The translations under genes were made by a program, and so were the position numbers. Under the pieces are notes generated by a model. It worked only from the letters and a program-made list of their open reading frames with translations. It had not been told where the DNA came from and did no database searches. From Rhizophagus irregularis (taxonomy: Eukaryota), in contig NC_089429.1 of NCBI RefSeq assembly GCF_026210795.1, forward strand, positions 2,790,001 through 2,854,000: a DNA stretch of 64,000 nt, read 5' to 3'. This document shows positions 8,535-48,952 of the stretch, one piece after another; within the stretch, counting starts at the first letter, position 1; every line of letters starts with the position of its first letter.

Positions 8535-8970
8535 TAGATTCTTATTTGTCAATTTATAGATTAAAACTGGATTTATTATGATTTATCCAGATTTATTGGT
8601 ATTTGATCGAGTTTGGGAGGATAAATTAAATTAAATGTCAAATTTATTATGATTTATTATATTTATTATGATTTATCTGGATTTATTGGGTTTGGGAGGA
8701 TAAGAATTAACTTTAATTAAAGTTCATAATTTATGTTGTTTAATGATTTTATTATATGCTAATTTTAAATTAAATGTCAAATTTTTATTGTCATAAATCG
8801 GAAATGCCGAATTGTGTAAATTGTCTGATTATTTTAAATCAGAAATGCTGAATTTTGTAAATTTTCTGATTGTTTTAAATCGGAAATGCCGAATTGTGTA
8901 AATTTTCTGAATTTTAGCTGAATTTAGTTTGATTTTCAGCTGATTTATCACATGTCTGATTTGCCTTATT

Positions 8971-10391
8971 TTGACTAGTGCATTAGTAGGACGACCACCT
9001 GCTATACGCCAGTCTTCATTCCAAGCATCTTCTACAGCTCTTAACTTGACTATTGTATTTTCTGGTTGGCCAACAGCCTCATTTAATGCATTAGCTCCTA
9101 TCTGTACTGAAGTTCGCCCATTTACTGCAACTAAGTTAGCCTGCCCTGTATTATCGAGTAAATTAGTTAGCTTCCAATTCTGCTTTGTAGTAATCTCATC
9201 ATCGAACCATTCTAAAGTCCTTCCTCTCATACAGGCTCTTAAATGTCCTATTGTATTATCTCTTCCTGTTAGAGAATCTGCTACATTATCATTTATATCT
9301 ATTTCCCGATTCTGCAAGTCTAGTCTAAGTTGTGCAAGAAAGTCTGGGATACTATCATCCCAGTCGAAATATGGATGAGGTATTCCTGCCATGTTTACTT
9401 GATTAGGTGGATTATTCTGAAGCGCCAAAATTTGTCCCTGTAAATTTAAATTATTCTGACGCTCTGCTTGGGTTTTATTTTTCCATTTCTTGTATCATTC
9501 ATAGAACCTGTCTCGATTAAATTCTAACAGACCTATATCTCCTCTACTTCGCTGTAAGTGGTGGGCATTTCGCTGATACAATAATTGTAAGGCAAATTTT
9601 TCTTGTACCAGCACACCTATACGGGCTTGTTTTCTTGCCATATTATTTATCATTCTATTTACCTGGTTTTGAGTATTAATTTGATATTGATGGAGATCAC
9701 CAATAATATTAGTTATCCTACTTTCAGCAAGTTGCCTTCGTATAATTTCATTATCACGCTTAGCTTTTGCATCATAATACCTTCGTTGCTTACAGACTAA
9801 ATCCTGATGCAAATTATTTTCTTTTTAGCGTATCTGCCTTGTAGCTCTTTTTATTTAGTCTATAAGAATATCCCTAGTTGTTGTTCTATTATCTACATAA
9901 CCATCTATAGCATTTGCTAGCTCTGTGATTGTGGCCATATTATCATCAGAATTATACAAGTCTGGAGAATTCCCTCGTTCAAGCGAAGTTTTTCGTGATG
10001 AGATGCTTCTGATCTGGTATCACAATTTTTTAACTTGTTTCTCAAATTCTACTAACTGCTCTTCTAAACTAGAAATATATTTTCCCTTATCTCGCACATC
10101 TTTTCTAGCTTGATATAGCTAACTTTTTAGGGTAGAGATTTCAGATTTTAACTCTACTATCTCTTCTTTTGAAGCATTTTCAAGGCGCTCTATCTCCCTA
10201 TTGAGATCTTGAATTTCTTTCTCACATCAGGCATAATTCTGTTCTAATTGATTAATTCGTCTCTCATTCTGACGATTAGTATCAACTTCTATCTGCAATT
10301 CACTACGAAGATGAAAGTTCTCTTCTTTCAGCTCAGCTTTATGTTCTTCACATATTCTTTTCTGCCTTGAGTGAGATCTGCAAAATGACAT
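8971..10391 (-). pseudogene. Gag-like retroelement ORF with long coiled-coil N-terminus, 3'-truncated
   Basis: One reading frame from MSFCRSHSRQ through a coiled-coil region to PYFDWDDSIPDFLAQL...HLRACMRGRTLEWF, broken only by point-mutation stops. Confidence 0.55.
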
Positions 10392-10769
10392 TCTTTTTTC
10401 GTGATTATAAAAGAGAATGAGAAAACCCCTTGGATCAATTTATATAGATCCTCAGAAAGCATATGATCTTAACTGGGATCTGGGTTAAGAACTAATCTGG
10501 AAAATTTGGCAGAGGTGATACATTTCATGTATAACGCCTTCGACTAATTTTACTAGGCGATCATGTATGCAGATTATTTAGCGTAAAAAATAAAGAATAA
10601 GTTATACATACATTGTACTTTTGGTTAAATAATACTAATTTTCAGTTAAAAGCAATAGTCTATAATGTAGAATATTTCTCAGAATCAGTCAAGTCAGTTA
10701 GACAATTGTGATTAGTGTTTCATTCTTCAATCTCAACACAGTACCTTTTGGCTGTTTTGCATACCGAGA

Positions 10770-12149: not shown

Positions 12150-12827
12150 TATCATGTTACTCCAAATAAAATGAAACGACTTTTTTGGAATGATGAGAAT
12201 ATGTTATTCTGATCAAGAGGAAAAAATCACAAAATCACATGCACTAGGGAGATAACAGGTTAACAAGAATATAATCAAAAGTTAAAAACAATAAAACACA
12301 CCCGTTCTCTTGCCACTTTTTATCGAGATTAATGTTTTCCCAGAATTCCTTTATCCCATGTGTTTCATCCTTACAAAAAAAGAATGGAAAGTTAAAATTT
12401 TGACGAGTATGAATAGAAGATTTACAATTACAATTACAGTCACAATTACGAACTAGGAACGGCACCCATCACCCGGGTAGGAACGGCACCCCCCGAGCTG
12501 TTCGAAACAGGATATTACATTGTAGGAACGGCACCCCATACCTCGGAGTAGGAACGGCACCCCTCCAAGGCTATGCAACTCCTGTTTAAGAAAATGGAGA
12601 TTAAGTACCTTCTGTAATAGTGAAGTCGCAACTTTAACTTGCTCATTATCTCGTTTCTCAGACACAATTCTTTTTAGAACATTACGATATCGCTTTCGCA
12701 AAGCGGAGTTCTCAGAGAGTGACACGTCTTGATCAGTAGACATAAATACCGGTTTTAACGTTTCTAAAAAACTCAGATATGACCAATCTGAAGGAGGAGT
12801 ATCATTGAAATACGAATCGCAGAACAT
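12150..12827 (-). pseudogene. 5' part of a paralog of the 33301-36471 gene, truncated
   Basis: Exon 1 (12827-12609) MFCDSYFNDTPPSDWSYLSFL matches MGDPQTYFEEHATWSLISFL. Intron 1 (12608-12370) is at the equivalent position. Exon 2 DETHGIKEFW matches DEKSSPDVEAFW. The 3' boundary is approximate. Confidence 0.7.
12447..12588 (-). ncRNA. Intronic structured RNA element: 4 x GGGUGCCGUUCCUA in hairpin loops
   Basis: Exact 14-mer at 12454, 12478, 12523 and 12549. Flanking stems CCUUGGAG/CUCCGAGG and GCUCGGG/CCCGGGU; closing stems AAACAGGA/UCCUGUUU and CGAAC/GUUCG. Confidence 0.65.
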
Positions 12828-13181
12828 ATCTGAAAATTACAATCAATTAATACTGCTAGAAAAAAGTGTAAATGTGATCTACTTATTTACCTAAATGTGA
12901 TTTCATTGACACCGACATAACGAAAGAGTCTTTGTAAATCGTGAAAGAGAAGTAGTAACACGAACGCGAATTTTTTTACGATATACTGCGCCAGATTTCG
13001 TGACATGTGATTGATTAGTCAGATGTGGGGGCTGATCGCCGCCGGCGATAAATGGCAAACTCCTATTTATTATATTAATTATATTTAATATAATCGATAT
13101 AATTATTTTATTTATGTATTATATTTAATTTATTTATTATATTTATTATATTAGATATATTTATTAGAATTTTTATAACTA

Positions 13182-13325
13182 CAGTCAAACCTAAATATCG
13201 TTATATCAAAGTTATACCGATATTTATATATCCTCACATATAGTGGGAAAATAAAATTTTATCGGTATATCAAGTTTTTAATAGTATATCGGTATATCGA
13301 ATATCGGTATATCGAGGTTAGACTG
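13182..13325. mobile_element. Tc1/mariner-type MITE
   Basis: TA|cagtcaaacct ... aggttagactg|TA. Confidence 0.85.
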
Positions 13326-13330
13326 TATAA

Positions 13331-16300
13331 CCGGTGGTTAACATCACCGGTATCACATGACATTATAAAAATCATGTGACTTCAACATTTTTTACGATCA
13401 AAAAAATTTTATTTTTTTTTAATAAAAGACAAAGTACAAAAATCAATATTATAACTAAATTTAATTGGCTATATATCATTGATTTTGTTTATTACATGTC
13501 CTAGCATTGTGACCTGGTTCCCCACAAACTTTACATATATAGGTTTTCCAATTTGATGTATTTTCGCTCCTTTCTTGTCTTTGTGTATTAAAATCACTAC
13601 TAGTATTGGTATCAAGTACATTAAAAGGTGTTCTTGATGAAGACGCTTGTCTGAGGATGTTGTTGCACTTCACATACATACAAGTTAGGATCAGATGGAT
13701 TTATTGCACTATTTTTTGTACTAACATGACGTGAATTTGTACGAGCTGCTTAATCCGTTTATTTGGTGGATGTCCAAGTCATTTCTGAACTATAGGATCT
13801 AAAATCTGTAGATTTTCTTCATTGTTTTTATCGTTCGTTTGATCTTTAATAATATTTTTCTTGCAATTAATAAACTTATTAATCATATCAATAATTTCAT
13901 TTTCACATCCCAAATCAAGAGCTAAATTAAGAGCTTTCTTCATCTTTCCAAACCCATATGCATACTTAACTTTCCTTTGTAAACATTGTTTAATATTATT
14001 TGTAAATACGTCTGGTATTCTAAGTTGCTTAAATATATGCAAATCAGTTACTAAAGCAGTATTGTTATCATCTTGTTGAAACTGTGTTACTATTCCAACA
14101 GTTTCATCTTGTAAATTTGCTTGAATGTATTGATCTTGAATATCCTCTATATACCATCGTCTGGCAATAAGACCAATGTTAAATTTCGCCACCTTTGAAT
14201 TTATCATAACTTGAAAATAATGTAAACATACAAGTCCACGATTAATTATAGCCAAACAAGTACATAAATGACCACCATCTATTAATAATATAATATAATG
14301 CTTGTAGGTTTTTTTGGTAAGGCTATAAAGTTCCCAAATTTCTATAATGTCAGACAGTTCTATTTCTTCCAATAAAGAAAATAGAGAAGTTTGCGGTCTA
14401 TTCAAATGATCTTCAAGAAATCCTTCATTATAGTTACATTGATCATCATCCTAATTAAGAAATGTAACATTTCGCATATAGTTATATGACATCAGTGGCT
14501 TTTTTTTCACTTCGTTACAAATCTCAAAACACTAAATTTTTAAAGTTTCATACCTTTATTGTATTAATTGACTCTTTAGAAATAATCTTAGTACAATATA
14601 ACAAAGAACCAAGAATTTGTTGTTGTTGAACTGACAAAATATGAGGAGTTAAATATTTCTTCATTAATTCAACAACCTTAGGAAATATGGGTTCAATAAT
14701 TGAAGGTACCTGGTTAGTTGGAAGACTTTGAAGATATGCATTATGTCGAGCCCATTGTGCTTTATTGTTTAATAATTTTTGAATTTGAATATGTAAATTA
14801 CACAGTGAAGTAGTACTACTGGTGCTTTCTTTAATTAAATGGTTCATAACTTCAACCCTTTGTGTACTTTAAATACCCGCTGTAAAACACTTAGTTTGAT
14901 AGCATCTTGCCCATGTTTGATAACAATTATTCAAAGTTCGATTAAGATACTCTTGGGTTTGTGAATATTTTTCAAGTAATCGTGTCCAACGCCGGTGAAA
15001 ATCATTCACAAATAGACTATTTCGGGTATGTAGAAATTCCTTATAAAATGATTGGTATTCTTTGCCTAATTTACCTGCTAAATTTTTTCGTAGGTTTTCT
15101 TGAATGTGAAAAATGCAAAGAAAATGATGTGATTCAGGGAATTTTGATGTCACTGCATTTATTAAAGCAGGATCTGCATCAGAAAATAAGCAAGTAGGCG
15201 GATTATTATTAGTTGTTTGAAGAAGACAATCAAGAAACCATTCATAACTTTCAATTGTCCCATCTTCTGATAAACATTGAGCAACAAGACGGCTTTTAGT
15301 ATTATTATCAACTATGACTAAAAGAGTTAAATACATATCAAACCAATTGGTTTGGCATGTATTATCAATTTGTACAATATCATTATATCGCAAAAGACAT
15401 TGATGCTGATTAGGAGACATCTAGAATAAGCCCACAAGACGATTATCAAAAGGATCAAGTCTTGTGTAAATAATCCACCCAGGCTTCGATCTTAGCTCAA
15501 ATAATTTGTTAATCATATTCGAAAGATCTCCACGTCGATTTGTAGCCGCGATTTAAACTTTTGAATTGCATTGTAAAGATCTCTTTTATAAATATACTGA
15601 TCTGGAAAACTTGCAACCAATAATGGATATATTTGTTTAGATTCCATATTTCCTTTATTAACATAGAATTCGATCTTTTCAAGTATTTCATTTGATAATT
15701 TGCGATAAGGTGCGTATAAATGTATATCAGTGATCATACTATAATTATGTTCACCAGTAATGCTCGTGATGCTTACTTCTGTTGATGATTTAGGCATTGT
15801 AAGATTTATATGCCATGGACATATAATTTTTTGAGATGAACGTTGTCGTTGATGAGTTATATCAATTATTTGATTAGAAATAGATTTACCTGAAAAAGAA
15901 CATTCAAATGTTCGACATCGCACAATTCTATTATTATCAGATTCAACGCGTTTTCTTCTCAAGGAAAATCCAGCAAATTTAGCATATTGATTAAGCTTTA
16001 TTTCTGCATCCTCCCATGTAGAAAATGAAGTACCAACTTTAATGTCAATATTAGATTCATCTGACATTATACCTTCTAGTTGATCATTTAGGATATTAGA
16101 TACATATGTTTCGTTATGTTTATCTTTATCCATACTTGTATATAATAGCAAAATCAAATGAAAGAATAAAACAGTTGAAGTGTAAAGGATAAAGATTATA
16201 GAGAAAAGTAATGTGTTCAGCAAAATAATAATTTAAACGTGTTTAATGGGGAAGAGTAATGGGAGTAGAGTTCCAATCTGCCATCTGACGGATAATCACA

Positions 16301-16872
16301 TTTTGACAGTTGTACGCTCATTTAATTAATATAAAAGAGCATTTTTTTTTAAGGATATCCTAAGAGCATAATACAGTATATAATTTAATAAATAAACTTT
16401 TATTTCAAAAATGAAAGTGAGGAGAAATTAGGAACGGATTAAAATATCATCCGACAGATGAAAATTTCAATCTGACTAAGATTTCACCCCATTTATTTTA
16501 TGTTCAATTAATTAAATAATGCATAGTCTGATCACCTTACATCGAATGCAGTTCCTAAATTATAAATTATGAAACATAAATGTCTCTTTCCAAAAATAAA
16601 TGAGAAGAGATTGATCATCTGTCGGATGACGGATTGAAACTCTAAATGGGAGAGTAACGAAGAGTAAGAAAAGACATAAGCCACAATTAGCCAATTAAAC
16701 AATAAACAATAAATAAACTGAAACAATAGATAGTGTGTATCATTATTAAATTTAGATAATGCACTAAGCATCTTTAAATTAATTTTACTATTTTTAAACA
16801 ATAAACACGAAATTTAATAATAATAAACATATAATGATAATATCACGTGACTGCAGTGATTTTAACCACCCG
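13331..16872 (-). mobile_element. MULE/Mutator DNA transposon
   Basis: Imperfect TIRs c(c/g)ggtggttaa.atcac at 13331 and 16872 enclose a FAR1-like transposase; no TSD is recognisable. Confidence 0.8.
13476..16133 (-). pseudogene. MULE (FAR1-like) transposase pseudogene
   Basis: FAR1 domain (YAKFAGFSLR...CPWHIN), MULE core (QIDNTCQTN, FSDADPAL, HFLCIFHI), SWIM finger (CTCLAIINRGLVCLH) and C-terminal knuckle CKVCGEPGHNARTC; frameshifted. Confidence 0.9.
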
Positions 16873-17369
16873 TTATTTAAAGTAATATTATATTAGTTAT
16901 ATTTCTTATATTTATTATAACTATTATATTTATTATATCTTTATATGTAGTAACTTTTATATAAATAACGTTGGTATTTTCCTTTGTTATAAGTTAAGTT
17001 CCTTCAGTTCACTTTAGTTCCTATAAGTTATTATTCTTGTAATTATAAAGTTCTATAATAAAGTATAACCTTTTACACTATAAACGAACTCCCTATTTTA
17101 AGCGTGTCTTGTTTGATTGGATTTCAGTCATAGTTAAACATACTTAATCTTTCTGACTGCAAATCATAGTTAATCTATTCAACGTACCGAATTGGTTAAT
17201 ATCGCACTAAATGGACCTATCCTTTATTAACTAAACGTGATTCTGCTAGTGTGGCTAAAGGATTTGTGAAACTTTTTAATTCCCGAATATGCCCAATTAT
17301 CTGGTCTAAAGTTAAAATTTTAATGGTAGATAGGGGCGTAGAATTCCAAGGTAATGTTATCATACTAAT

Positions 17370-17669
17370 TATACATGCTGCCCAAATTATTTAGGGATGT
17401 CATAATTATAATTTGGGATGCCATAATTCATTTAATTTACATATAATTTACTATGTAAAGTGCCAAAATAATTTGGGATGCTATAATTGAATTTGGGATT
17501 TTACACAGGTCGAAAAGTTAAAAATCAGGCACCAATCGGTCACCAATCAGGTAGCTGATTGGTGACTGATTGGTGACTGATTGGTGACTGATTGATGCCT
17601 GATTTTTCACTTTTTGACCTGTGTTACTTATAATTATGGCAGCCCAAAATAATTTAAGTGGCATGTATA
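17370..17669. mobile_element. hAT-type MITE inserted in the integrase
   Basis: TIR tatacatgc; perfect 8-bp TSD atactaat (17362-17369, 17670-17677). Removal restores VIILMNEH. Confidence 0.9.
17504..17623. mobile_element. 120-bp MITE with CACAGGTC termini nested in the hAT MITE
   Basis: TTA|cacaggtcgaaa ... ttgacctgtg|TTA, with internal tgattggtgac repeats. Confidence 0.85.
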
Positions 17670-18675
17670 ATACTAATGAACGAACATGGTATCCAAATTC
17701 AACTAGCTAATTCTAAAGAATCTATGGGTATTGTTGAGAGATTTAATTGTACACTTCAAGAATGGGTATTCTTTATTCAAGATAGTGTTGAAATGAGATT
17801 ACCTTCTACTAAGCACTGTCGAGCTTGGGTAAAAAACCTTCCAATTTTTCTTGTAGAGCTTGACAATTCTGTAACTCGACTTCTGGGTATTTCTCCTGCT
17901 AAAGCTCGAAAAAAAGAACATGTCTTTGCTAAAACTTCCAAGCCACAAGAAAGACCTATTGGGTTTGATAAACCTAGATTATCCCATGATGTCTTAATAA
18001 GATATTTGCTTAATCCTGGTGAATTAGAAAGTGGAAGACGATGTGCAACTAATTGTAATTGATCTCCCCAAATTTATCATATTCATGAATCTCTAGTGCA
18101 AAAAAATCAGCCGGTCTTGTACTGGCTAATAGCTAGATGATGAGGGCAATAGCCCAAAAAGATCTTTTGTAAGAAAAAAGCTTTAAATCGAAAGGCCATC
18201 CAGATGGGTGCTTACGAATTAGATTTCTAATTCATGAAGTTTAAGCATTTCGTTTACTTCTTCTATAGATCTTTTTGTATAACCTCTTCTTGGCTCGCAA
18301 ATAAAAGATATAATTTGTATAACTTTTCGATACTCTGATACACTTCTTCATTATACCAGTCTTTGTAATCTGCCATTCTTTCATTATAGGCTTTCTCATT
18401 TGGAGCTTGTTGCTTTGCTACATATCTGCAATGATCATCTGGGTCCCTTTTACGTCACATTGTTTTCAAATAACCTACATATGTCAATCCCATTTTATCA
18501 TATTTTTTTGTACCTTGGCTATATGCTATTTTGATTATCTCAACTAATGCCAATTCGATATCTTTATAGTTAACAATTTTGAATGTTTGTATTAATATAG
18601 CAAAAACTTTTGTTTAAAATAAAATATTTATTTCTTATTACCATGATAGGTGAATATTATTGCAATTATTTACTC

Positions 18676-18864
18676 ATGACTGAATACGTCTGTAGACAGA
18701 CTTGTCGTCAGCCTAAAGGATGTTTTGAGCATTGGCCCCGCATCCCCTGTAAGGTTTGTAAGAAGCCGACTAGCTCGAATCTGGCCTTTGTGAAAGCACT
18801 GGTACTTGGTACTTATTATGTAACCCATATTTTAATAGGTTTCGGGATAAAGCTAATGCGATGA
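18676..18864 (+). pseudogene. Small Cys-rich (zinc-binding) ORF next to the integrase
   Basis: MTEYVCRQTCRQPKGCFEHWPRIPCKVCKKPTSS. Confidence 0.4.
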
Positions 18865-19608
18865 TTTAATTTAGATGTAAATTGATGAATTGCTTCTAGA
18901 GCTGTCAGCAAATAAAACTGAAGAAGCAGGAGAGCAGGGTTAGTGACGGGTTAGTGTCAGGCTAGTAATGGGATAGTAACAGACTAGTAATGAGCTAGTG
19001 ACGAGCTAGTGTTAAGAATCCTAGAAGTTAATATATACATGTATATGCATTTATATCATATTATTTTGTCTAGAGGTAATCCTATTTGCCTCATATAATA
19101 GCATACATTAAATAAGGTAGCATACTTATTCTTCTATATCAAACGCACATTTATATCTGACTTTTTTACACCTATAGTAATACTTCCTATTCATACCCAT
19201 TTTTTTTTACATTCATAGTAATACTCTCTATCTATATCTGATTTTTTTTTCATACCATAGGTGTAAATTTTTATTATGTCAGAATTATAATCAGGAAGGC
19301 GCGCAAAGGTAAGAAAACAAATTTATGATTTAAATAAGTAAGAAGGACTAGAGTACATTATTTGTCAAACTATCATTCTTGAAGTTTTCAGGCGAAAATA
19401 ACTTGGTCTATACATACTTACTACTAGATATACATTTTTATTATATCAAGATTATAATCAGGAAGGCGCGCAAAGGCAAGAAAATAAATTAGTAATTTTA
19501 TTAAGAAAGAGGGGACTAGAAAACATTCTAAGAATACGAATTTTATTGATATACTAGAACTATATTTTGAGAGCCCTAGAATGGTGAAATTAATAGGTAT
19601 TCATTTTA

Positions 19609-21768
19609 CACAGGTAAAACGCTGACCAATCGGGTACCTACCCGATTGGTAACTTTTTTTTTGATCAGTCACCTGATTTATTCAATAAGTTAGAAATTGG
19701 TGTACACTTCAATCGGGTATCAATCAGGTTCATACCCGATTGATAACTATCGTTCAGTTTAAATTTACCGATTGATTTCTATTGTTTCAATTAGATTATT
19801 GATAAACTATTTTTCTTTAACTAAAATTAAACTATTTTATACTATTGAAATTTACACTAACATTTTTTTCGAACATTTACTTTTGAAACTTAAAAAAAAG
19901 TTTAAACTATTTCATACTATCTTTAACATTTTTTTTCAAACATTTACTTTTGAAACTTTTAAAAAAATTTTTTTTTTAGGAAATTAGTTCTGATTTGGAT
20001 ACCGGAATCCCACAAAAGTTTCAAACATTTTACTTTCGAAACTTTATTAAACTGAAAAAACCATTTATTTGAAGATATTAATAAACGATTTTTAACATTT
20101 TTTTTTAACATTTTATTGTAGGAAATCGATTATAACGAATCCCATAGGTGAGTTTCGAAAAATAATTTTTCAAAACTCACTTTTTTTTAATATTCAATTA
20201 TAGGGAATCAGCTATAATGAATCCCATAGGTGAGTTTTAAAAAATAATTTTTCAAAACTCATTTTTTTTTATTATTCAATTGTAGGGAATCGGTTATAAC
20301 GAATCCCATAGGTTAATTTTGAAAAATAATTTTTCGAAACTATTAAAAAACGTTTTTAACATTTTTTTTCTAATATACTATTATAGGGAATCGGTTACAA
20401 CGAATCCCATAGGTGAGTTTTGAAAAATAATTTTTCAAAACTCATTTTTTTTTATTATTCAATTATAGGGAATCGGTTATAACAAATCCCATAGGTGAGT
20501 TTTGAAAAATTCTTTTTCAAAACTATTAAAAAACGGTTTTAACATTTTTTTTCTAATACACTATTATAGGGAATCGGTTACAACGAATCCCATAGGTGAG
20601 TTTTGAAAAAATTTTTTGAAACTCTTTTTTTTTAATATACAATTATAGGGAATCGGTTATAACGAATCTCATAGATTAGTTTCGAAAAATAATTTTTCAA
20701 AACTATTAAAAAATGTTTTTAACGTTTTTTTTATTATTCAAATATAGGGAATCGGTTACAACGAATCCCATAGGTTAGTTTCGAAAAATAATTTTTCAAA
20801 ACTATTAAAAACCGTTTTAACATTTTTTTAAAACGTTTTTTTTTAATATTCAATTATAGGGAATCTGTTATAACGAATCCCATAGGTAAGTTTTAAAAAT
20901 TATTTTTCGAAACTATTAAAAAAATGTTAACTAACGTTTTTTTATTATTCTATTATAGGAAATCGGTTATAACGAATCCCATAGGTAAGTTTCAAAAAAT
21001 ATTTTTTCGAAACTATTAAAAAAACGTTAACGTTTTTTTTTTAATTCTTTTATAGAGAATCGGTATAACGAATCCCATAGGTAAGTTTTGAAAAATATTT
21101 TTTTGAAACTATTAAAAAAACGTTTTTAACGTTGTTTTTTAAATGTTCTATTATAGGGAATCGGTATAACGAATCCCATAGAATCCCATAAGTAAAAAAA
21201 CGGTAATAAACGTTTTTTTATTATTCTATTATAGGGAATCAGCTCTGATAGATGTATATACCAGAATCCTATAAGTAAGTTTTAACTTTTGAAACTTTTT
21301 TTAAAAAACTTTCTTTAATGTTTTTTTATTTCTTTTGTAGGGAATTTGCTCCAACCTGGATACCGGATTCCAGATAAAATTTCAGTATTAGTAGTATTTC
21401 TGATTTTGTATTTTTAATAATTAATAAATTTAAATTATTAAATGTAATTATTGTAAAATATCAAATAAATTTAAATAAAAATATATGCAATCGGCAGATT
21501 TCTTATTGTTATAAATTTATCAAAAAGTTATCAATCAGTATACTGATATGTTAAATAGTAAATATCCAGTAAATATCCTATTGGTAACTATTAATACCCG
21601 ATTATACTCTATTGAATATCCCGATTGGTACCTGAGTATCCTTCTTTTGCGACATCTTTTGGCAACAATCAGGTTTACCGATTGATGAAAAATTTTAAAA
21701 AAATAGGGACCAATCGGGTGGAATTCAGTCACCTGATTGGTTCCCAATTTGATATCGTTCGACTAGTG
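19609..21768. mobile_element. Non-autonomous CACTA-like element
   Basis: Termini CACAGGT (19609) and CACTAGT (reverse complement ending 21768), shared ccaatc(g/a)ggt subterminal motifs, internal tandem array; no clean TSD. Confidence 0.55.
20115..21240. repeat. Tandem array of roughly 80-110-bp units
   Basis: About a dozen copies of the core tatagggaatcggttataacgaatcccataggt, separated by variable A/T tracts. Confidence 0.9.
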
Positions 21769-22411
21769 ATTCATAAAATATTTGTGATTATTATGTAATC
21801 CAAATATATTCTAATAAAATAGCAAGATAATTGCATTATAATAATAGTTATTATAATATAAATATAATTATTTTGACTTCTAGTAATTCAATTTGAACAA
21901 ACTTTTTTTTTATTTTGTAAAGCTATATTTGTAGAGCTAAATGAAAACTATAAATTAAAAAAAAAGTTTATTAAAAATTGGATCACTAGAAGTCAAGATA
22001 ATTGTATTATAGTAATTATATATAAAAATAATTAAATTACTTATATTTATATTTAGATATATAATTTTGATGATTGCATCCTTCTGGGTGAATATAGTTC
22101 ATGGTAATTTGTTTGTATGATATATAAACTTAATATCAATAAAGCATATATAAATCATTTAAAAAATATATATATATATATATATTTAAATATACAGTTA
22201 ACTCTTGTTATAACAAATTCTAGGGTCCAGACAGGACCTCAAACAATATATATATAGGTCAGATAAAAAATTCAAAATTTACTAAGGTCAATAAGCAAAT
22301 ATTTTTCATGTCTGCTAAGCAAACTTTTATCTAACCCATAAATTTTTTACACTGCTAAGCAATTTATTTTATGACATATATATATTTATATATAATTTTT
22401 TTTATAAAATA

Positions 22412-22769
22412 CTAGTGTTCACCTGTTGTCTACGACAACAGTTAATATGTAATTCCGGCCAGAATTAAAAGATCTGCAAAGAATTTCCTTTTTTGGAAAT
22501 TTGAGCAACACAATTTTTTTAATTTCTCTGAAAAGTAACAGAAGACAAATTTCCTTTTTTGGAAATTTGAGTAACTGACAATTTCCTTTTATGGAATCCT
22601 GTATAACCCAAAATTTCAGTTTTTCGCCAGAAATAAAATTTCCTTTTTTGGTCTTGTGTAATATTTGCGACGAATAGGAGTAGGGTTACACAATTCAAAT
22701 GACTTATTTATATGATTAATCTAAACATAACGCCCACATGATTGCAGTGTTTTTTAATATATAGATAGA
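22412..22769 (-). mobile_element. Non-autonomous Helitron
   Basis: On the minus strand: 5' A|TCTATCTATATATTAAAAAAC, 3' hairpin CTGTTGTC-GTA-GACAACAG then GTGAACACTAG|T; inserted at AT with no TSD. Confidence 0.85.
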
Positions 22770-23639
22770 TGTATATAAAAAAAACTAAAAAAACAAAAAT
22801 TTTTGAAATAATGTATGGATAAAGCTATTATTATTTTTTTGTAATATTACAACTTATAAATGTTTCTTATTAATATTTCGTATATCTGTTCTGTGACTTT
22901 AGAGCGTAATTTAGGCACATTAGTCAAAGGAAACATTTAAATCCTTCTTAAGTAAAGTTGTTCAGCAGGTTCGAATCTACTTATATATAAATTTTTATCA
23001 TGATTGAATATATATTTATGGATTTATTCATGTTTTTTGTAACACTACCTAGTGTTCTGAACGGATCGGATCAGACCGGATTTTAGTCAAATCTGATCTG
23101 ATCCGAATTCGAATCAAATAAAATCAGATTCGATTCGATCCGATTCGGATCTGAATTAGATTCGATCTGATCCGATTCGAATCCGAATTAGATTCGATCC
23201 GATCTGATCCGAATCCCAACTGATTTGATCTGATCCGATCCGGATCCGATCCAGATCCGAATCAGTTTTCATAATTAAATCAAATAAAAAAGTCTTTCAC
23301 AACATTTTTTTTTAATATAGTTATAAGACGTTGCGAAATGACTTTTTATTGACAAATTATCAAATAAAAAATATTTTTCGCAACGTTTTTATTAATACAG
23401 TTAAAAACTATTGCGAAAACGATTTTTATCGGTAAATTATCAAATAAAAACGTTTCGCAACATTTTTCATTAATACAGTTAAAAAACGTTGCGAAAGACG
23501 TTTTTTTATTAAATAAATATCTTTTCGCTACTTTTTTTACTAACACGGTTAAAAACTGTTGGGAAAAGCATTTTTTTTGTTAATGTATAAATAAAAACGT
23601 TAAAAAAACGGTGTTATATTATGAAAAAAATGACATTTC

Positions 23640-25230
23640 AGCATCTTTTCATATTATTTTATGAAAAAAGATGCTGAAAAGGCATCTTTTTCATTTTTTT
23701 TACAAAAAAGATGCTGAAACGGCATCTTTTCGTATTGTTTCATAAAAAGAGATGCCATTCGGCATCTTTTCGTATTATTTTATGAAAAAGATGCTGAAAC
23801 AGCATTTTTTCATTTTTTTTTATCAAAAAAGATGTCGAAACAGCATCTTTTCGTATTATTTCATGAAAAAGATGTTGAAACGCATCTTTTCGTATTATTT
23901 TATGAAAAAGATGCCAAACAGCATTTTTTTGTTTTTTTTATCGAAAAAGATAAAACTTTGCAGCATCTTTTCATATTAATTCATTAAAAGAGATGCCGAA
24001 ACGGCATCTTTTCGTATTATTTTATGAAAAAGATGCCGAAACGGCATTTTTTTTTATTTTTTTATCAAAAAAGATGCCATTTCAGCGTCTTTTCGTATTA
24101 TTTTATGAAAAAAGATGCCGAAACAGCATCTCTTTCATTTTTTTTATCAAAAAAGATGCCATTTTGCATCTTTTTCATTTTTTTATCAAAAAAGATGACG
24201 TTTCAGCATCTTTTCATATTATTTCATGAAAAGAGATGCCGAAACGGCATTTTTTTCATTTTTATCGAAAAAGATGCCGCTTTCAAGATCTTTTCATATT
24301 ATTTCATTTGAAAAGAGATCTTAAACGCATCTTTTCGTATTATTCATGAGAGATGCGAAACGGCATCTTTTCGTATTATTTCATTTGAAAAAGAGCATGC
24401 CAAACGGCATCTTTTCGTATTATTTCATTTGAAAAGAGATGCCAAATGGCATCTTTTCGATTATTATTTTATGAAGAGATCGAAAGCGCACTATTTTCGT
24501 ATTATTTAGAAAAGATGCTTTGAAACGGCATTTTTTTCATTTTTTTATCAAAAAAGATGCTGTTTCAAGGCTTTTCGTATTATTTTATGAAAAAAGATGC
24601 TGAAACGGCATCTCTTTCATTTTTTTTTATCAAAAAAGATGCTGTTTCGCATCTTTTTCATTTTTTTATCAAAAAAGATGCCGAAACGACATCTTTTTGT
24701 ATTATTTCATGAAAAGAGATGCCGAAATGGCATTTTTTTCATTTTTTATCAAAAAAGATGCCGAAATGGCATCTTTTCGTATTATTTCATGAAAAGAGAT
24801 GCTGAAACGCATCTTTTCGTATTATTTCAGCGAAAAGAGATGCTGAAATGGCATCTTTTCGTATTATTTTATGAAAAAGATCTTTGAAACGGCATTTTTT
24901 TCATTTTTTTATCAAAAAAAGATGCCGAAACAGCATCTTTTCGTATTATTTCATGAAAAGTGATGCCATTTCAGCATCTTTTCGTATTATTTTATGAAAA
25001 AAGATACCGAAACGGCATTTTTTCATTTTTTTTTATCAAAAGTATGTTTGCTGCATTTTTTTCATTTTTTTTTATCAAAAAAAGATGCTGTTTCGGCATT
25101 TTTTTCATTTTTTTTATCAAAAAAGATGCTGTTTCGGCATCTTTTCATATCATTTTATGAAAAAAAATGCCGTTTTTCAGCGTCTTTTTCATTTTTTTTA
25201 TCAAAAAAGCACCGAATTAGCGTTTTTTCA
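23640..25230. repeat. Tandem array, about 39-bp palindromic unit
   Basis: Repeats of aaaagatgccgaaacggcatctttt followed by cgtattattt or catttttttatc. Confidence 0.95.
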
Positions 25231-25409
25231 TAAAATTCTGATTTAATCTTTTAATTTATTGATGGTCAATTAACAAGTCTGCTTGACTTTACACATTATG
25301 TTTCATTTAAACTTTATTTATAATTAAATCTATTTACAAATGAATTAAACCTATTTATAATAATAGAGATATTATCAAAGATAAAATAAGAAATATTAAA
25401 ATTATTAAA

Positions 25410-27579: not shown

Positions 27580-27724
27580 AGTTAGCTTTACAAAAAAATA
27601 AACCGAAAATCTTTAAAAAAATTTTTTGGTGCTACATATGTTGGTTGATAAACATCATGATTATCAACTTAGTGTTCCAAACGGATCAAATCGGATGAAT
27701 CTGATTTTGACTCGAATCCATTAT

Positions 27725-30700: not shown

Positions 30701-31080
30701 TTAATGAAAAAAACCGCTTTTGCAACGGTTTTTTAATATTTTAATAAAAAAACGTTGCGAAACGTTTTTTTATTTCAATTTAATGAAAAAAAACCATTTC
30801 GCAACAGTTTTTAATCATTTTAATAAAAAAACGTTGCAAAACGTTTTTTTATTTCAATTTAATGAAAAAAACCGTTTCGCAACAGTTTTTTAATATTTTA
30901 ATAAAAAAACATTGCGAAACGTTTTTATTTCAATTTAATGAAAAAAAACCGTTTCGCAACGGTTTTTTAATATTTTAATAAAAAACGTTGCGAAACGTTT
31001 TTTTATTTCAATTTAATGAAAAAAAACCATTTCGCAACGGTTTTTTAATATTTTAATAAAAATGTTGCGAAAGCGTTTTT
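27725..31080. repeat. Tandem array, about 80-bp dimeric palindromic unit, about 3.3 kb
   Basis: Alternating aaaaccgtttcgcaacggtttt and aaaacgttgcgaaacgtttt subunits. Confidence 0.95.
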
Positions 31081-31374
31081 AACAATTAACTTAACAATTG
31101 CAACGTTTTCAATTTAATAACAGGGCATTTTTTCATCTTATTTTTATGAAAAAAGGCTTTTTGATCTGATCCGTCAGGATCGATCGGATCGTCAAATCTG
31201 AATCTGATCTGATCTGATTTGTATGAATTGTTGATCCGATTTGATTCGATCCGAATCGGATCAAATTTTTTTGATTCGGATCGGATCACGGATCATAAAA
31301 TCTATGATTCGATCTGATCTGTCTCGGATCAGATCCGCGGATACGGATCAGATCGGATTTTTTTTGGAACATTA

Positions 31375-32040: not shown

Positions 32041-32158
32041 AAAAATTAAAAAATTAAAAATCCGTGTATATACAAACTGTTTTATTTATGTAAATTGTAA
32101 ATATGATACATAATAAATTCTACAAATTTTTGTTAATATTTTCTATAAGTATATATAT

Positions 32159-32854: not shown

Positions 32855-33552
32855 GTTTTTGCGAAAATAATAAAAATTTATATAAAAAAAACAGTAATAA
32901 AACTTAACAATTTCAATATTCTTACTTGTCAAAAACACTTAGCCAAAGGTTTGAACGATTGGTTTGACGTTGGAACGATTGGTTAGACGTTAGAACACGT
33001 TAGAACGATTGGTTAAATCAAAAAAAAAAAAAAAAAATTTTTTTCTTGTGTGTTCGCATCAGCTGCGCAAATCACGGGTGCAGAAATCATCTGATCAGTG
33101 ACCTTAAAAGGCCCAATTATTACAATACGCTCATATGGCCCGAAATGTGTTATCCGGTTTCCTAAATCATTGAATCATTGGATGATGCGCAATCTCGTGA
33201 AACGTACAACTATAAAATCAGGAGCATGCGCTGATCGCTGTCACGCTTTAGTGAAGTAAAAATTATAACGCGTAACCCGTCGCAAATACCACCACTTAAA
33301 ATGGGTGACCCACAAACATACTTTGAAGAACACGCAACCTGGTCGTTGATTTCTTTCTTGCAATACAGACGACAGTATGCAAAAGATTTCACAAGAGATA
33401 AACTTAAAGAGCATAGGAAATATACGAAAGAACTTGATAAAATTATTTCAAATAATGAATCAAAGGAGAAATGTGATCAAGCTCAAAAATGTCTTAACGA
33501 CTTTGATGTACGTGTTTTTATATAAATATTTATCAATTAACTAAGATAGAAG

Positions 33553-33693
33553 CCCTGAGTAGCTGGCTGACTGCGTCTCGGCCAGTGATAGTGAACCGCG
33601 CCTTCCCTCGGGGAATAGACTGCGCCTCTATTTCCATGTTGCAACTAGGAACTGCGTCTTTCTGGTTGTTAGACTGCGTCTCGTTTCATGGAA
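33553..33693 (+). ncRNA. Intronic structured RNA element: 5 x ACYGCGYCU in hairpin loops
   Basis: Motif at 33570, 33595, 33619, 33651 and 33673. Stems GCUGGCUG/CGGCCAGU, AAUAG/CUAUU and CAACUAGGA/UUCUGGUUG; closing stems CCCUGAG/CUCGGGG and UUCCAUG/CAUGGAA. Confidence 0.65.
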
Positions 33694-34115
33694 TATATCT
33701 CCTATTCCTTTGATTATAATGATAAGTTTTGGTTATTTGATTAGACTCATATATTCTCTGTTTTATAAGGACGAGAAATCATCTCCAGACGTAGAAGCTT
33801 TTTGGATATCGGACACGATATATCTTACCAAGGTGAACAGATTACTATCTATAGATTCTTATTTTAACGAGAAATTGACTTAACCATACTTAATAGTTAA
33901 ACTATGCAAAATCTGCGTTGGATAAAACCGTCGAAGAAGCAAAGGAAATACGAACAATTGTGTCTGATGAAACGATATCCATACTAAGAGACGGTGTAAG
34001 TTATTCTGTGAGAGTATATGTGCATTTTTTTTTAACCTTGTTGTTTATCCATAATGAATTACTGTGCAATTTTGGTACTAGAACACTGTTCCGCATGTTA
34101 AGACTCCTGAATCGA

Positions 34116-34782
34116 AGCGAGCGCCAGATAGTGATAGTGAAAGCAACGAAAAGGTTAGTATAAATGTAACACAGATAATGTATTATACAAAGGTTTATGT
34201 GTATATTAATTTTATATATTTCACAAGCCAGGAAAGCGCACAAAGACCGAAGATGATGAGTATCATGATGATGATGAATCAGAGCGAGCGCCAGATAGTG
34301 ATAGTGAAAGCAACGAAAAGGTTAGTATAAATGTAACATAGATAATGTATTATACAAAGGTTTATGTGTATATTAATTTTATATATTTCACAAGCCAGGA
34401 AAGCGCACAAAGACCGAAGATGATGAGTATCATGATGATGATGAATCAGAGCGAGCGCCAGATAGTGATAGTGAAAGCAACGAAAAGGTTAGTATAAATG
34501 TAACACAGATAATGTATTATACAAAGGTTTATGTGTATATTAATTTTATATATTTCACAAGCCAGGAAAGCGCACAAAGACCGAAGATGATGAGTATCAT
34601 GATGATGATGAATCAGAGCGAGCGCCAGATAGTGATAGTGAAAGCAACGAAAAGGTTAGTATAAATGTAACATAGATAATGTATTATACAAAGGTTTATG
34701 TGTATATTAATTTTATATATTTCACAAGCCAAGAAAGCGCACAGAGACCGAAGATGATGAGTATCATGATGACGAATCAGAA
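34116..34782 (+). repeat. Tandem exon+intron duplication, 167-bp unit x4
   Basis: Unit starts at 34116, 34283, 34450 and 34617; each is a 74-nt intron plus a 93-nt exon (PGKRTKTEDDEYHDDDESERAPDSDSESNEK). Confidence 0.95.
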
Positions 34783-36687
34783 AGTGATGAAAGTGACGAT
34801 GAATGTGAGTTAAGCTAAGCGTGGAAGAAATGGGATTTGACGAGTACGTTGATCGAAATGATCAACCTGTAAGTATATTTTTTTCTTAAGGTTGATTGTA
34901 AGTACGATTTTTTTAAAACAATAATCGTTTTATAGTTCATTTTCAAAACAAAAAACATACCGTCACTATTTGAGTCATATCGATCCAAAGCGTTAGCTCA
35001 TGCGCAAAATTCTGGTCTGATAATGACGAAAAATTATCACGAAATATTGTAGGTAGAACTTTTAAATGTAATGTCTTTTTAATGATTAACTTTGCTGATG
35101 GAGGTTGATTATTATTTTTTTTTTGAAAATTCAGGAGTCTATCCCATATTCTTTTATTACAAATGGATAATTATTCGGAAACGCAAGTAAAAACGTTCTC
35201 TAGGGAAACGCTCGAAGATCTTAGAAAGGATATTAAATCAAAGTTAATCGGAAAAGAAAAAGTAACAAGGGACGTAAAATCAATCCTACAAGAGTGCATT
35301 GAGGTTCGTATTTTTTTATTATCATCATTCTTTTGCAATGTTCCCTTTACTGACTATCTTGCTTAGATTGCTCTTGACGATAATGATGGTGGATTACACG
35401 AACTTCGCGAAACCATCACTGAATCTTTTTCGAAAAAATTTAATTCAACAGCAGAGAAAGAATTTCTTCGACGAATGAAGTTTCTCTTTGAACATCTGTA
35501 AGTTTTGATATCTCTTAGTTAAGCAACTTTTTGAAATGGCTGTTAACAAGATTTTTTCTTGCTACTTTGCAGGTCTTATACTATCCCATTACATCCATTG
35601 AAAGAAATTATAAGCGAAGGGACACTTGTGGCGAATATAATAAGTCCGGTGTTACGAATTTTTTTTCATGACTCATACATATATCCCACGATATGGCCGA
35701 ACACATCCAGCACCAGCGCAAAGGTCCGAAAACTTGCCATCGGTGATCCTTCCCGGGCTAAACAACCCGATATGATCGGGAAAATTGTCAATAATGGTAC
35801 TTATATAAAAAACAGTTAATCATAAAAAATACAAATAAATCTGTTCTAATTATTTCTTTAACATAAACAGGAAAATTTGTTTATGAATCGATGTTCGGTG
35901 AGGTGACGGGAGAAGGAAAAAATAACACGGAAAAAAAGAATCTAATCGACCTGGTTAGATTGGGGATATTTATGAAAGATTCCCTTGATAATATTTCGCG
36001 TAAGACCGGTGTCAATCGGATTTTCGGTTGGCAAGTTATTGGTAAGCTGGTCTTCCAGGAACGCTTGTTTTAACTAACTTATCCTACCTAATTAATGATT
36101 CTTCATGTAATAAATAGTGACAAAGTGGACCGGTTATATGATGACATTAATTAGTCCAGGGATTTACGTTATGGTTGACACTGGTAGTGTAGATCTTCCA
36201 AGATCTTTCGAAGTATGCAATACGTTTCTATCTGGTCTGGATACGCTGTTTGCATTTCAGGTATAACTTAGGAATATCAATATTACTTGTTAATTCTGTA
36301 TAAATGACTAATTCAAAACTGTTCCTCTAGATAGCATATGAAAAAACAATAATGGATATCCTCTCAATTATGAATAAAAGTGAAGAAGTTGAGAGTAATG
36401 ATAATTTTAAAGGATGGCGTCGATCAACACTTGGAACACCATCGTTCAAAAAAATTGTGAAGTTCAAATAACTATCAAATAAGATATTACTTGTTAATAG
36501 AACATATATTTACGTAATATTAATCAACTAATTATATTCTATATCAGCTGTTTCTTTCTTTTTCAATATTAATAAAGTTGTTTGCTCGCAATCCGGTTTT
36601 AATTTTCATGAATTGACCTTACTATATATATATAATACGCACATTATATTTATAAAATGCATATATACAAAAAGACAGAATCAAACC

Positions 36688-37374
36688 TTATTTGTCCAAT
36701 TTCAGGGGTATATCCCAACCTAATCTAGTTGTGAGAGGATCATCAGTTGCTTTAGTAAAATCGAAGACCACAAAATTCCGATCTCGCAAATGTTTGTCAA
36801 TAATCTTGGAAGCTTTTTTAGAGTTATCCGTATACTGACGTACGATTCTGGCTATATCATCCCGACTTCCCGCCCCTCGAAAAAGGGCTAAATGCGTGAT
36901 ATTCTCACGAATAATTTTAGGAGTTTGTGTATACTTCTGGCTCACGTATATACTTGATACACCTTGATGTCGGCCACTGATAAAATATGGAACAATCCGG
37001 TCCTGAATTTTCTTTGATTCAGCGCAAAGGTCCTCAAAGACTACAACAGTGTTTCTATCTGGTGAGAACTTAGTTATATCTGGAATTGCACCTGCTTTTA
37101 ATGCACGAAATGTCACGTTCTCCCGATATGTTTTTGGGCCCTTCGAAAAAATTTCGTAACAGTTTTTCACTAATACCCATTTGGGCTCATGGATATGCTT
37201 TCCGATTAAGACTAGATCATCATTTTTGACATACCGCTCCCCTTTCTTTTCCTTGAACAAACGTTGAATTTTATTTCCAAGAAGAAGATTAAGAATCATA
37301 TTGGTTTTTCCACTGTCTGATCCACCGCAAATTAACAAACGAAAGGGAAACGCAGGACTGGCAGGGTGATTCAT
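36688..37374 (-). CDS. A32-like (FtsK/HerA superfamily) DNA-packaging ATPase, Maverick/Polinton type
   Basis: Intronless 228-aa [18 protein letters not shown] (Walker A), VVVFEDL (Walker B), ISGRH (Arg finger), YVSQKY...PKIIREN. Confidence 0.85.
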
Positions 37375-38109
37375 ATTCTTTGAATTTTTGGTCTCGTTAA
37401 GATGGTATATATGTTGTGCGTCAAGTGTCGATTTGCGTCAGATGCAGCTGACGTGCGTCAGATGTAAATTGATACTTGACAATAAAGTTTTCCTATAGTA
37501 AAAAATTTTTTTTACTAATAAAATTATTTTTTTATTCCGTAAGTAAATTTGTTTGTTACAATAAATTACACATATTGTGAAAATTTTATGGCTATTTAAC
37601 CTATGTTTAATTAAATATTGTAAATTTACTTGAAAAAACTTGTAATTTATTAATATTTTGAATGAAGTGTTTTCCATGAAACTGAGTCTAATCAATTTAA
37701 TATTACAGGTTTACATATTTTTTAACAAGATTAATAAACTTATTTAATAAAGAAATTTAGTTTAAGTTTGAAAATTTTAATTTAATTATAACTTAATTTT
37801 GCATATTTTATATCACAAGTGACGCGCGTCAGGTATCAATCTACGTTTGACAGCATAAGTAAAAATCGGTGTTATTGGCTAATTTATTTGTCACGTGATT
37901 CAATTTACGTGATCAGCAAATATATGTAACGCGTTATTTTAAAAAAAGGAAAAAAGGCTTAGATATATATCACATAATAACACATATTCAAATTTTTTAT
38001 GGAAGTTCAGCAGTCTTTTCTCAACCAAGATCCGGTTTCAGTTTGAATAGATCTGACTTTAGGTTAGATTTCTCTTAATAGTGATGACAAGAGGTTTTTA
38101 TAAGTGAAA

Positions 38110-48800: not shown

Positions 48801-48952
48801 TTACGGAGGAACCCGAACTGTATGGGTGTCCGCAGTTGTATTACACCAAAGAATACAACACAATACCAATCGGTTCAATTAACCAAGAAGTTCATATAGT
48901 TCCAAGGTTTGGCAAAGTAAATCGTTATTTGTTAAATAAATACATGTTTTAA
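45824..48952 (+). pseudogene. Plavaka-type transposase, multi-exon, several stops
   Basis: N-terminal C2H2 (YQCQICKREF), LSIILYSDTTTFDGLGKSSGYPVFLTLGNIP, FFLADMLE, PCHTC, PDRMHHIDL, RQIPRFPGL, LSTETYETLH, VHIVPRF...YLLNKYMF. Confidence 0.85.

What the first reader, a model, noticed from the sequence alone, without database searches (positions are those of the whole stretch)
12150..18864. Both hairpin-intron genes sit beside Maverick/Polinton core genes
Seen: removing the MITE and MULE insertions (13182-16872) brings the 12827 gene within about 0.7 kb of the rve integrase fragment. The 33301 paralog ends about 220 bp from the A32-like ATPase, tail to tail. Known: integrase plus packaging ATPase are Maverick/Polinton hallmarks. 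Inference: the nuclease-plus-intronic-RNA module may be cargo of a virus-like element, possibly an addiction or defence cassette.
Basis: inference. Interest (0 to 1): 0.75.

Follow-up and report, generated by a model that had tools for sequence, protein, structure and literature searches.

The report
Nuclease gene welded to Maverick remnant
In a mycorrhizal fungus, one intact gene for a predicted nuclease lies tail to tail with the DNA-packaging gene of a broken virus-like transposon, in a block that recurs elsewhere in the genome, while the second gene is only a stub beside another remnant; this is likely a one-off capture in transposon-rich DNA rather than an addiction cassette, although near-identical relatives in distant fungal orders leave virus-borne transfer open.

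Summary
The coordinates hold. Removing a MITE and a MULE leaves 682 bp between the 12827 codon and an integrase fragment, and the 33301 gene stops 216 bp from a Pox_A32 ATPase. Both remnants are of the Glomeromycota Maverick type. But the two genes are not equivalent. The 12827 gene is a 5' stub with no nuclease domain, beside a decayed, 5'-truncated integrase. The 33301 gene is intact (631 aa, predicted restriction-endonuclease-like fold), and its junction with the ATPase recurs at a second, dispersed locus in annotated Rhizophagus irregularis assemblies, so that block was copied as a unit. Most copies of this ATPase lack the gene, no element ends were found, the two remnants point in opposite directions, and the closest cross-order relatives come from genera with no ATPase hit. 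No genome was held, so the enrichment test could not be run. The family shows 89-93% identity across fungal orders and header swapping, as nematode Maverick cargo does. Verdict: local capture most likely (0.5); true Maverick-borne cargo open (0.27); addiction or defence unsupported.

The parts
8832..10439 (-). Broken coiled-coil plus gag-like frames of a probable retrotransposon, downstream of the stub
   Evidence: frames; gag families appear only as weak Atlas leads, 0.81-0.83; no Pfam hit
12302..12918 (-). 5' stub of a family gene: short first exon from 12918, exon 12829-12609, repeat intron, about 23 codons of the next exon, then an abrupt break; no nuclease domain
   Evidence: annotated model P0035 shows the same break
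12370..12608 (-). GT-AG intron with four copies of a ~13-nt GC-rich motif
   Evidence: 0 of 100 shuffles; fold z -0.58
13182..13325 (.). MITE with TA target duplication
13328..16875 (-). Decayed MULE (FAR1, MULE, zinc knuckle frames) with terminal inverted repeats
17200..18195 (+). 5'-truncated, decayed Maverick-type integrase fragment
17370..17669 (.). MITE with 8-bp target duplication inside the integrase
18198..18880 (.). Two small, tightly packed, broken frames right after the integrase (one on each strand; the + one is cysteine-rich); probably Maverick accessory genes
   Evidence: translations; no Pfam or PHROG hit of note; assignment is inference
33301..36471 (+). Intact multi-exon family gene, 631 aa in annotated records; helical header, acidic linker with 167-bp tandem repeat, predicted restriction-endonuclease-like C-terminal domain
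33508..33769 (+). First intron with four copies of a ~11-nt motif, different from the stub's motif
   Evidence: 0 of 100 shuffles; fold z -1.27
36472..36687 (.). 216-bp junction; homology to a relative's 3' flank ends near 36579, and other ATPase copies leave the window's sequence at 36695-36753
36688..37412 (-). Maverick A32-like packaging ATPase, open frame, cut at its 5' end by a high-copy repeat that starts at about 37406

Best explanation
The intact 33301 gene, a predicted nuclease, lies tail to tail with a Maverick packaging-ATPase remnant in a block that recurs at a second locus, and this likely stems from one old joining event followed by duplication, while the 12827 stub is likely a chance neighbour of a separate, decayed Maverick copy. 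Shown: the junction, its presence at two loci, the stub, the decay. Inferred mechanism: members of this large, fast-moving gene family and Maverick copies both pile up in transposon-dense chromatin. One family member landed just behind the ATPase stop of one Maverick (or a Maverick piece landed behind it) in an ancestor of today's R. irregularis strains. The block gene + ATPase + upstream zinc-finger nuclease was then copied to another chromosome-scale contig, and perhaps in tandem in one strain, as a passenger or by ectopic duplication, and each copy was later clipped by other insertions. The repeat intron likely limits production of the protein by being retained, rather than acting as an antidote RNA.
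For: Adjacent accessions for a 33301-type gene and the ATPase in four named assemblies: PKK66693/66694, EXX65771/65772, POG71736/71735 (the latter the zinc-finger nuclease that precedes the ATPase), GBC14620/14618. Two copies in one assembly on different contigs: OCT59_000572-3 (7,995,222 bp) and OCT59_016998 (3,600,274 bp). Contigs of 3 of 4 runs bridge gene end and ATPase end (34986-36809). Other ATPase contigs go loose at 36695-36753 in 4 of 4 runs and summed depth over the ATPase is about 4 to 29 times that over the gene (the tool warns this is no copy number). ATPase records of the GBC/GET series lie on at least 15 contigs, 33301-type records on 2 (only 10 of 120 listed clusters were opened). 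Fusion models from Gigaspora rosea and Cetraspora pellucida put integrase end and ATPase on one strand, whereas here they are opposite and 18.5 kb apart, so the two genes fill different slots of two copies. The integrase cluster at 90% has 5 members, none on a second-locus contig. The left neighbour of the 33301 gene has no Maverick hit. A gag-like frame also lies within 4 kb of each gene (the second judged by eye).
Against: Two separate Maverick copies each touch a family member within one 64-kb window; 4.3% and 7.1% of the window lie that close. Both known 33301-type loci in R. irregularis carry the ATPase, and no loose end at the gene's 3' end appears among the 24 rows shown (178 not shown). 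The stub sits upstream of the integrase, which is the cargo slot in nematode Mavericks, where only 47 of 235 cargo genes had a core gene within 6 kb (10.1101/2022.07.12.499685, section 11), so my negative counts have little power. The family's cross-order near-identity needs a vehicle that this explanation does not supply.
Confidence: 0.5

Rival explanations
1. [quoted passage not shown]
For: Identity to the 33301 protein of 93% over 225 aa (Ambispora leptoticha, Archaeosporales), 93% over 376 aa (Acaulospora morrowiae, Diversisporales) and 90% over 92 aa (Paraglomus brasilianum, Paraglomerales), whose model runs into intron 2 with 11 of 12 residues alike. A shallow clade (100/97) of 7 rows mixes three orders (28 named rows, last 300 aa). 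Headers are swapped on a 93% identical C-terminal part. The ATPase is itself 90% identical to a Dentiscutata protein. The block is duplicated and dispersed. Precedent read in sections 9 and 11 of 10.1101/2022.07.12.499685.
Against: None of the named ATPase hits among 120 listed of 129 comes from Funneliformis, Ambispora, Acaulospora or Paraglomus, the genera with the closest gene relatives. 0 of 12 metagenome loci hold ATPase, integrase or zinc-finger nuclease, but only L019 has more than 1 kb of 3' flank. Different slots for the two genes. No TIR in the flank comparisons made. No GC contrast between gene and ATPase (0.33-0.37 against 0.33). Cross-contamination between assemblies was not excluded.
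Confidence: 0.27
2. The genes move by themselves or by another vehicle (for example Helitron-type capture, proposed for Crinkler genes, or the predicted nuclease acting in its own spread), and Mavericks are only bystanders that inserted nearby.
For: 675 clusters at 50% identity; repeated cross-order pairs in several clades; the gene's taxon spread does not match the ATPase's. Transposon origin of CR-type nucleases and Helitron association are described in passages of PMC5289972.
Against: No terminal repeat or target duplication around the 33301 gene: best flank matches are 8-9 bases. No Helitron gene among the 84 frames scanned. It does not explain why both 33301-type loci keep the ATPase.
Confidence: 0.15
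3. The nuclease and its intron RNA form an addiction or defence cassette, like type III toxin-antitoxin pairs or Spok genes on Starships, that keeps the virus-like element in the genome.
For: Predicted restriction-endonuclease-like fold; a four-fold intron motif that differs between paralogs in 3 of 4 complete first introns tested; Spok nuclease toxins ride on giant transposons (PMC12693581, abstract and passages).
Against: The stub has no nuclease; second-locus copies are annotated as frameshifted or 5'-clipped; most ATPase copies persist without the gene; no Rfam match. Two otherwise intron-free contigs, L009 and L010, keep intron 1, which fits retention control better than a released antidote RNA. 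No toxicity data.
Confidence: 0.08

Closest known systems
Mavericks/Polintons of Glomerales (the Glomus intraradices = Rhizophagus irregularis Polinton)
   Same: A32-like ATPase and an integrase of the type fused to it in other Glomeromycota gene models; many recent copies. Expansion in Glomerales and R. irregularis is reported (passages of PMC11952901 and PMC8647823).
   Different: Only two remnants here, in opposite orientation; no polymerase, protease, capsid or ends found. No capsid gene had been found for this fungal Polinton (passage of PMC7805220).
Nematode Maverick cargo: WASP proteases and KRMA kinases (10.1101/2022.07.12.499685; abstract, passages, sections 9 and 11 read)
   Same: Intron-containing genes beside Maverick core genes, near-identity across distant taxa, modular N-terminal headers; both window genes meet that paper's 6-kb criterion.
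   Different: There the cargo lies in one slot between left TIR and integrase of complete elements; here there are two slots, no complete element, a nuclease-like fold and helical headers instead of ubiquitin-like ones.
CR/Crinkler-type header plus restriction-endonuclease-fold proteins (Zhang et al. 2016, not held; seen only through passages of PMC5289972 and PMC12693581)
   Same: Variable helical header joined to a predicted restriction-endonuclease-like domain; large expansion in transposon-rich DNA.
   Different: No Crinkler, kinase or NTPase Pfam hit in 85 aligned members; a repeat-bearing first intron; no named CR-REase subfamily could be assigned.
Spok genes on Enterprise/Starship elements (PMC12693581; abstract and passages)
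   Same: Nuclease-domain gene as passenger of a large fungal mobile element.
   Different: Spok has a kinase resistance domain and shown toxin-antidote activity; neither is shown here, and the neighbour is a Maverick, not a Starship.

Membership tests
Maverick/Polinton | A32-like packaging ATPase | tested here: met
   PF04665 E 3.3e-10; 129 relatives
Maverick/Polinton | Retroviral-like integrase of the type linked to that ATPase | tested here: met
   Fragment only. UniRef names; weak region-limited matches to integrase-ATPase fusion models P0162 (E 2.9e-4) and P0100 (E 0.002); no Pfam hit
Maverick/Polinton | Protein-primed DNA polymerase B and protease in the same element | tested here: not met
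   No such Pfam hit in 84 frames chosen across the window; short decayed pieces could be missed
Maverick/Polinton | Capsid genes | tested here: inconclusive
   None, but no capsid was known for this fungal Polinton (PMC7805220 passage)
Maverick/Polinton | Terminal inverted repeats and target duplication enclosing core genes and cargo | tested here: inconclusive
   Flank comparisons gave only short AT-rich matches; none among the 25 longest inverted repeats shown of 606; ends may have decayed or lie outside the window
Maverick cargo (nematode type) | Intron-containing gene within 6 kb of a core gene | tested here: met
   Both window genes; 40% of the window meets this distance
Maverick cargo (nematode type) | Position between left TIR and integrase | tested here: inconclusive
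   The stub is upstream of the integrase but no TIR was found; the intact gene is behind the ATPase instead
Maverick cargo (nematode type) | Family-wide enrichment near Maverick genes | not testable with these tools
   No genome held; metagenome loci too short
Maverick cargo (nematode type) | Near-identity across distant taxa and modular N-termini | tested here: met
   contamination between assemblies not excluded; no housekeeping-gene control
CR-type restriction-endonuclease-fold protein | PD-(D/E)XK-like fold with conserved acidic residues | tested here: met
   Model pLDDT 90.8; VIA-align HsdR N-terminal part Z 7.5, rmsd 3.8, 135 aligned, BpuSI Z 7.3, rmsd 3.9, 142 aligned, further nuclease folds Z 6.0-6.5; best rows are mitoribosomal chains, Z 9.9 and 9.3; E166, P216, D217, E236, D252 nearly invariant in 85 rows. 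Z under 8 is modest; activity untested
CR-type restriction-endonuclease-fold protein | Ubiquitin-like Crinkler header | tested here: not met
   No Crinkler Pfam hit for full-length members; helical headers also occur in CR proteins (PMC5289972 passage)
Toxin-antidote (addiction) cassette | Intact toxin at each locus | tested here: not met
   Stub lacks the domain; second-locus models are clipped or frameshifted
Toxin-antidote (addiction) cassette | Toxicity relieved by a linked antidote | not testable with these tools
   Needs bench work

The most novel reading that the evidence does not exclude
Mavericks of mycorrhizal fungi are gene ferries: they carry an undescribed family of header-swapping, nuclease-fold genes, each with its own four-repeat intron, between fungal orders that split very long ago, a fungal counterpart of nematode WASP/KRMA cargo, and the duplicated gene-ATPase block here is a loaded element caught in decay.
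Probability: 0.27. Interest if true: 0.8.

Novelty: new member of a known kind. Interest (0 to 1): 0.45.

Why it matters
If the best reading holds, this is a modest case of a Maverick remnant and a host-type gene copied together, and a warning that neighbourhood in transposon-dense fungal DNA is weak evidence. The by-product matters more: a family with 675 clusters at 50% identity and no Pfam name has near-identical members in four Glomeromycota orders, which points to gene exchange among fungi long treated as clonal. If Mavericks are the vehicle, it would give these plant symbionts a concrete route of horizontal transfer that can be tested in existing chromosome-level assemblies. My searches found no paper on Maverick cargo in Glomeromycota (0 papers with all four terms; listings seen, none on this by title or abstract start), but curated transposon libraries in supplements that I did not open (PMC11075540, PMC11952901) may already hold such a composite.

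Tried and rejected
No whole genome was held, so no enrichment test. Viral contigs: single ATPase query nothing; ATPase alignment 8 loci at 23-31% identity, none with a family hit; family alignment nothing; the one integrase hit L021 is a phage tail region and was dropped. Prokaryote genomes: nothing for family or ATPase, so no sign of an endobacterial vector. No gene model fuses family and Maverick sequence (208 family and 189 ATPase-cluster proteins). First fold with 20 rows failed (pLDDT 41.6); viral fold library gave nothing at E 0.001; PDB sequence search nothing; Foldseek on PDB only weak (9y1l, E 0.031). Rfam nothing. 'One old Maverick spanning 17.2-37.4 kb' was considered and set aside: orientation is opposite to the co-directional order in fusion models and the integrase has no copy at the second locus; an internal inversion is not excluded. 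Intron folding energy is not beyond shuffles; L016 (63 of 100 shuffles) and the partial L010 intron (12 of 100) did not pass the repeat test. Earlier-finding look-ups returned nothing; one search returned one unrelated note. Zhang et al. 2016 is not held. No supplements were opened; those of the bioRxiv preprints are closed and hold the nematode cargo tables.
Full report
Setting. The window is AT-rich DNA dense in transposon wrecks: CACTA-like, MULE, hAT, Plavaka and LINE frames among 84 scanned. Exons of both genes in question match proteins annotated in Rhizophagus irregularis at 100%. No genome was held, so I tested co-location indirectly, through accession order of annotated relatives, contigs of public runs and a metagenome scan.

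The observation. A MITE (13182-13325, TA duplication) and a MULE (ends near 13330 and 16873, 17 of 20 bases matching) separate the 12827 gene from an integrase-like frame; without them the gap is 682 bp. The 33301 gene stops at 36471, 216 bp from the stop of a Pox_A32 ATPase on the other strand.

The 12827 gene is a stub. It starts at 12918, has its repeat intron at 12608-12370 and breaks at about 12302. A full-length relative of 628 aa from Glomus cerebriforme (P0036) matches only its first hundred residues, and the family profile finds 7 frames in the window, all in the other gene. An annotated model from another strain (P0035) shows the same break. Beyond the break lie broken coiled-coil and gag-like frames (weak leads only), so a retrotransposon insertion is the likely cause. 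A longer copy exists in named records on another contig (CAB5359927-8, 2,277,595 bp) than the integrase member with neighbouring accession numbers (CAB5358834, longest contig 2,619,892 bp). Its flanks could not be read.

The Maverick remnants. The integrase has no Pfam hit, appears to begin abruptly at about 17200, carries stops and holds a further MITE. UniRef of its 5 cluster members integrase catalytic domains. Two gene models, from Gigaspora rosea (P0100) and Cetraspora pellucida (P0162), fuse an integrase end of this type to an ATPase of the window's type, one with a zinc-finger nuclease between (weak scores, search limited to the integrase region). So both remnants belong to one kind of element, with integrase and ATPase on one strand. 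In the window they are on opposite strands and 18.5 kb apart, so they likely come from two copies, and the two genes fill different positions: one before an integrase, one behind an ATPase. No polymerase, protease or capsid was found and no element ends. Mavericks are known to be expanded in Glomerales and recently active in this species (passages of PMC11952901 and PMC8647823).

The 33301 gene. It is intact, 631 aa in annotated records. Its C-terminal 376 residues fold with confidence (pLDDT 90.8) and resemble restriction-endonuclease folds at modest Z (HsdR N-terminal part 7.5, BpuSI 7.3, others 6.0-6.5; mitoribosomal chains rank first at 9.9 and 9.3). Five residues including a PD pair and three more acidic positions are nearly invariant in 85 rows. 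Nuclease activity is predicted, not shown. The family is large: 675 clusters at 50% identity.

The junction recurs. A 33301-type gene lies within two accession numbers of the ATPase, or of the zinc-finger nuclease that precedes it, in four named assemblies: PKK66693/4, EXX65771/2, POG71736/5 and GBC14620/18. One assembly has two copies of the gene on different large contigs (OCT59_000572-3 and OCT59_016998). Second-locus models keep the zinc-finger nuclease, which the window lacks, and several lack most of the first exon, which the window keeps. In one strain a gene start (PKC54447, partial) and a nuclease-ATPase model (PKC54449) share a 7,885-bp contig, which would fit a tandem copy; another has two nuclease-ATPase pairs (PKY33852/3, PKY33857/8). 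Contigs of 3 of 4 runs bridge gene end and ATPase end.

But the link is local. In the same runs other ATPase contigs leave the window's sequence at 36695-36753 in 4 of 4 runs, and summed depth over the ATPase is about 4 to 29 times that over the gene (not a copy number; 178 loose-end rows not shown). ATPase records of one accession series lie on at least 15 contigs against 2 for the gene (10 of 120 listed clusters opened). Among the 120 ATPase hits listed of 129, named ones come from Rhizophagus, Diversispora, Dentiscutata, Gigaspora and Cetraspora, none from Funneliformis, Ambispora, Acaulospora or Paraglomus, which hold the gene's closest relatives. None of 12 metagenome loci holds a Maverick gene, but only one has more than 1 kb behind the gene, so this test is nearly empty. 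Within the window 4.3%, 7.1% and 40% of positions lie within 250 bp, 700 bp and 6 kb of a remnant, and 91% within 4.4 kb of some transposon frame.

What keeps the cargo reading alive. The gene has relatives at 93% identity in Ambispora leptoticha and Acaulospora morrowiae and 90% in Paraglomus brasilianum, three other orders; the Paraglomus model even runs into intron 2 with 11 of 12 residues alike. A shallow clade of 7 rows (100/97) mixes three orders, and other cross-order pairs occur elsewhere in the tree (28 named rows, last 300 residues; unnamed rows left out). Unrelated headers sit on 93% identical C-terminal parts. These are the traits of nematode Maverick cargo, where intron-containing genes lie between TIR and integrase and only 47 of 235 had a core gene within 6 kb (10.1101/2022.07.12.499685, sections 9 and 11). 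Contamination between assemblies was not excluded and I had no housekeeping control.

The intron. Both first introns hold four copies of a short motif, different in each gene, as does L009 (0 of 100 shuffles each); L016 and the partial L010 did not pass. Folding energy is not unusual, though the motifs mostly fall in hairpin loops of the predicted structures. Retention as a brake on expression is the simpler reading; nothing here shows an antidote RNA, and Rfam has no match.

Verdict. Observation largely right, with the correction that one gene is a stub. Most likely a single joining of a mobile nuclease-like gene to a Maverick ATPase, copied as a block, plus a second neighbourhood in a transposon graveyard (0.5). 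True Maverick cargo 0.27; another vehicle 0.15; addiction or defence 0.08. Papers seen: passages of PMC11952901, PMC8647823, PMC11075540, PMC5289972, PMC7805220, PMC8502044 and 10.1101/2025.06.16.659975; abstract of PMC12957317; abstract and passages of PMC12693581; abstract, passages and two sections of 10.1101/2022.07.12.499685. The labels gag-like, Transib-like and type III toxin-antitoxin are partly recalled. No supplements were opened.

Noticed in passing
window 33301-36471; P0003, P0005, P0007, P0010, P0016, P0047; also P0272/P0400 and P0020/P0025: Family members are 89-94% identical across Glomeromycota orders, even into an ordinary intron, with swapped N-terminal headers: likely repeated horizontal transfer among mycorrhizal fungi, vehicle unknown, contamination not excluded.
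   Followed up: partly
window 12370-12608 and 33508-33769; L009 259-508; L010 1-156; L016 449-790: First introns carry a paralog-specific motif four times, often in predicted hairpin loops; two otherwise spliced contigs retain just this intron. L010 shares the 33301 intron's scaffold with a changed motif. L016 has two long direct repeats instead, seen by eye.
   Followed up: partly
P0100, P0162, P0114, P0124, P0183, P0246, P0247: Fused gene models give the order integrase, zinc-finger nuclease (PHROG endonuclease hits), ATPase for Glomeromycota Mavericks, and show these elements in Diversispora, Gigaspora, Dentiscutata and Cetraspora, outside the Glomerales where the expansion was reported.
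   Followed up: partly
window 31376-32938: End of a transposase-like frame (+; Transib/RAG1-like by recall, no Pfam hit) faces a C2H2 zinc-finger gene (-) tail to tail, directly upstream of the 33301 gene.
   Followed up: no
window 34108-34781: 167-bp exon-plus-intron unit repeated about four times inside the 33301 gene, expanding its acidic linker; second-locus models have fewer units.
   Followed up: partly
window 37406-37900: A high-copy, palindrome-rich repeat begins at about 37406 and clips the ATPase's 5' end (13-16 contigs per run start there).
   Followed up: partly
window 45800-50900 and 50840-51223: Two Plavaka-type elements in inverted orientation, about 75% alike, form a long imperfect inverted repeat.
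   Followed up: no
window 20000-31100: Long AT-rich tandem arrays (units of about 40, 78 and 80-100 bp) around a decayed hAT transposase.
   Followed up: no
window 40400-40930: Broken gag-like frames, judged by eye, about 4 kb from the 33301 gene; used as an informal control for neighbourhood.
   Followed up: partly
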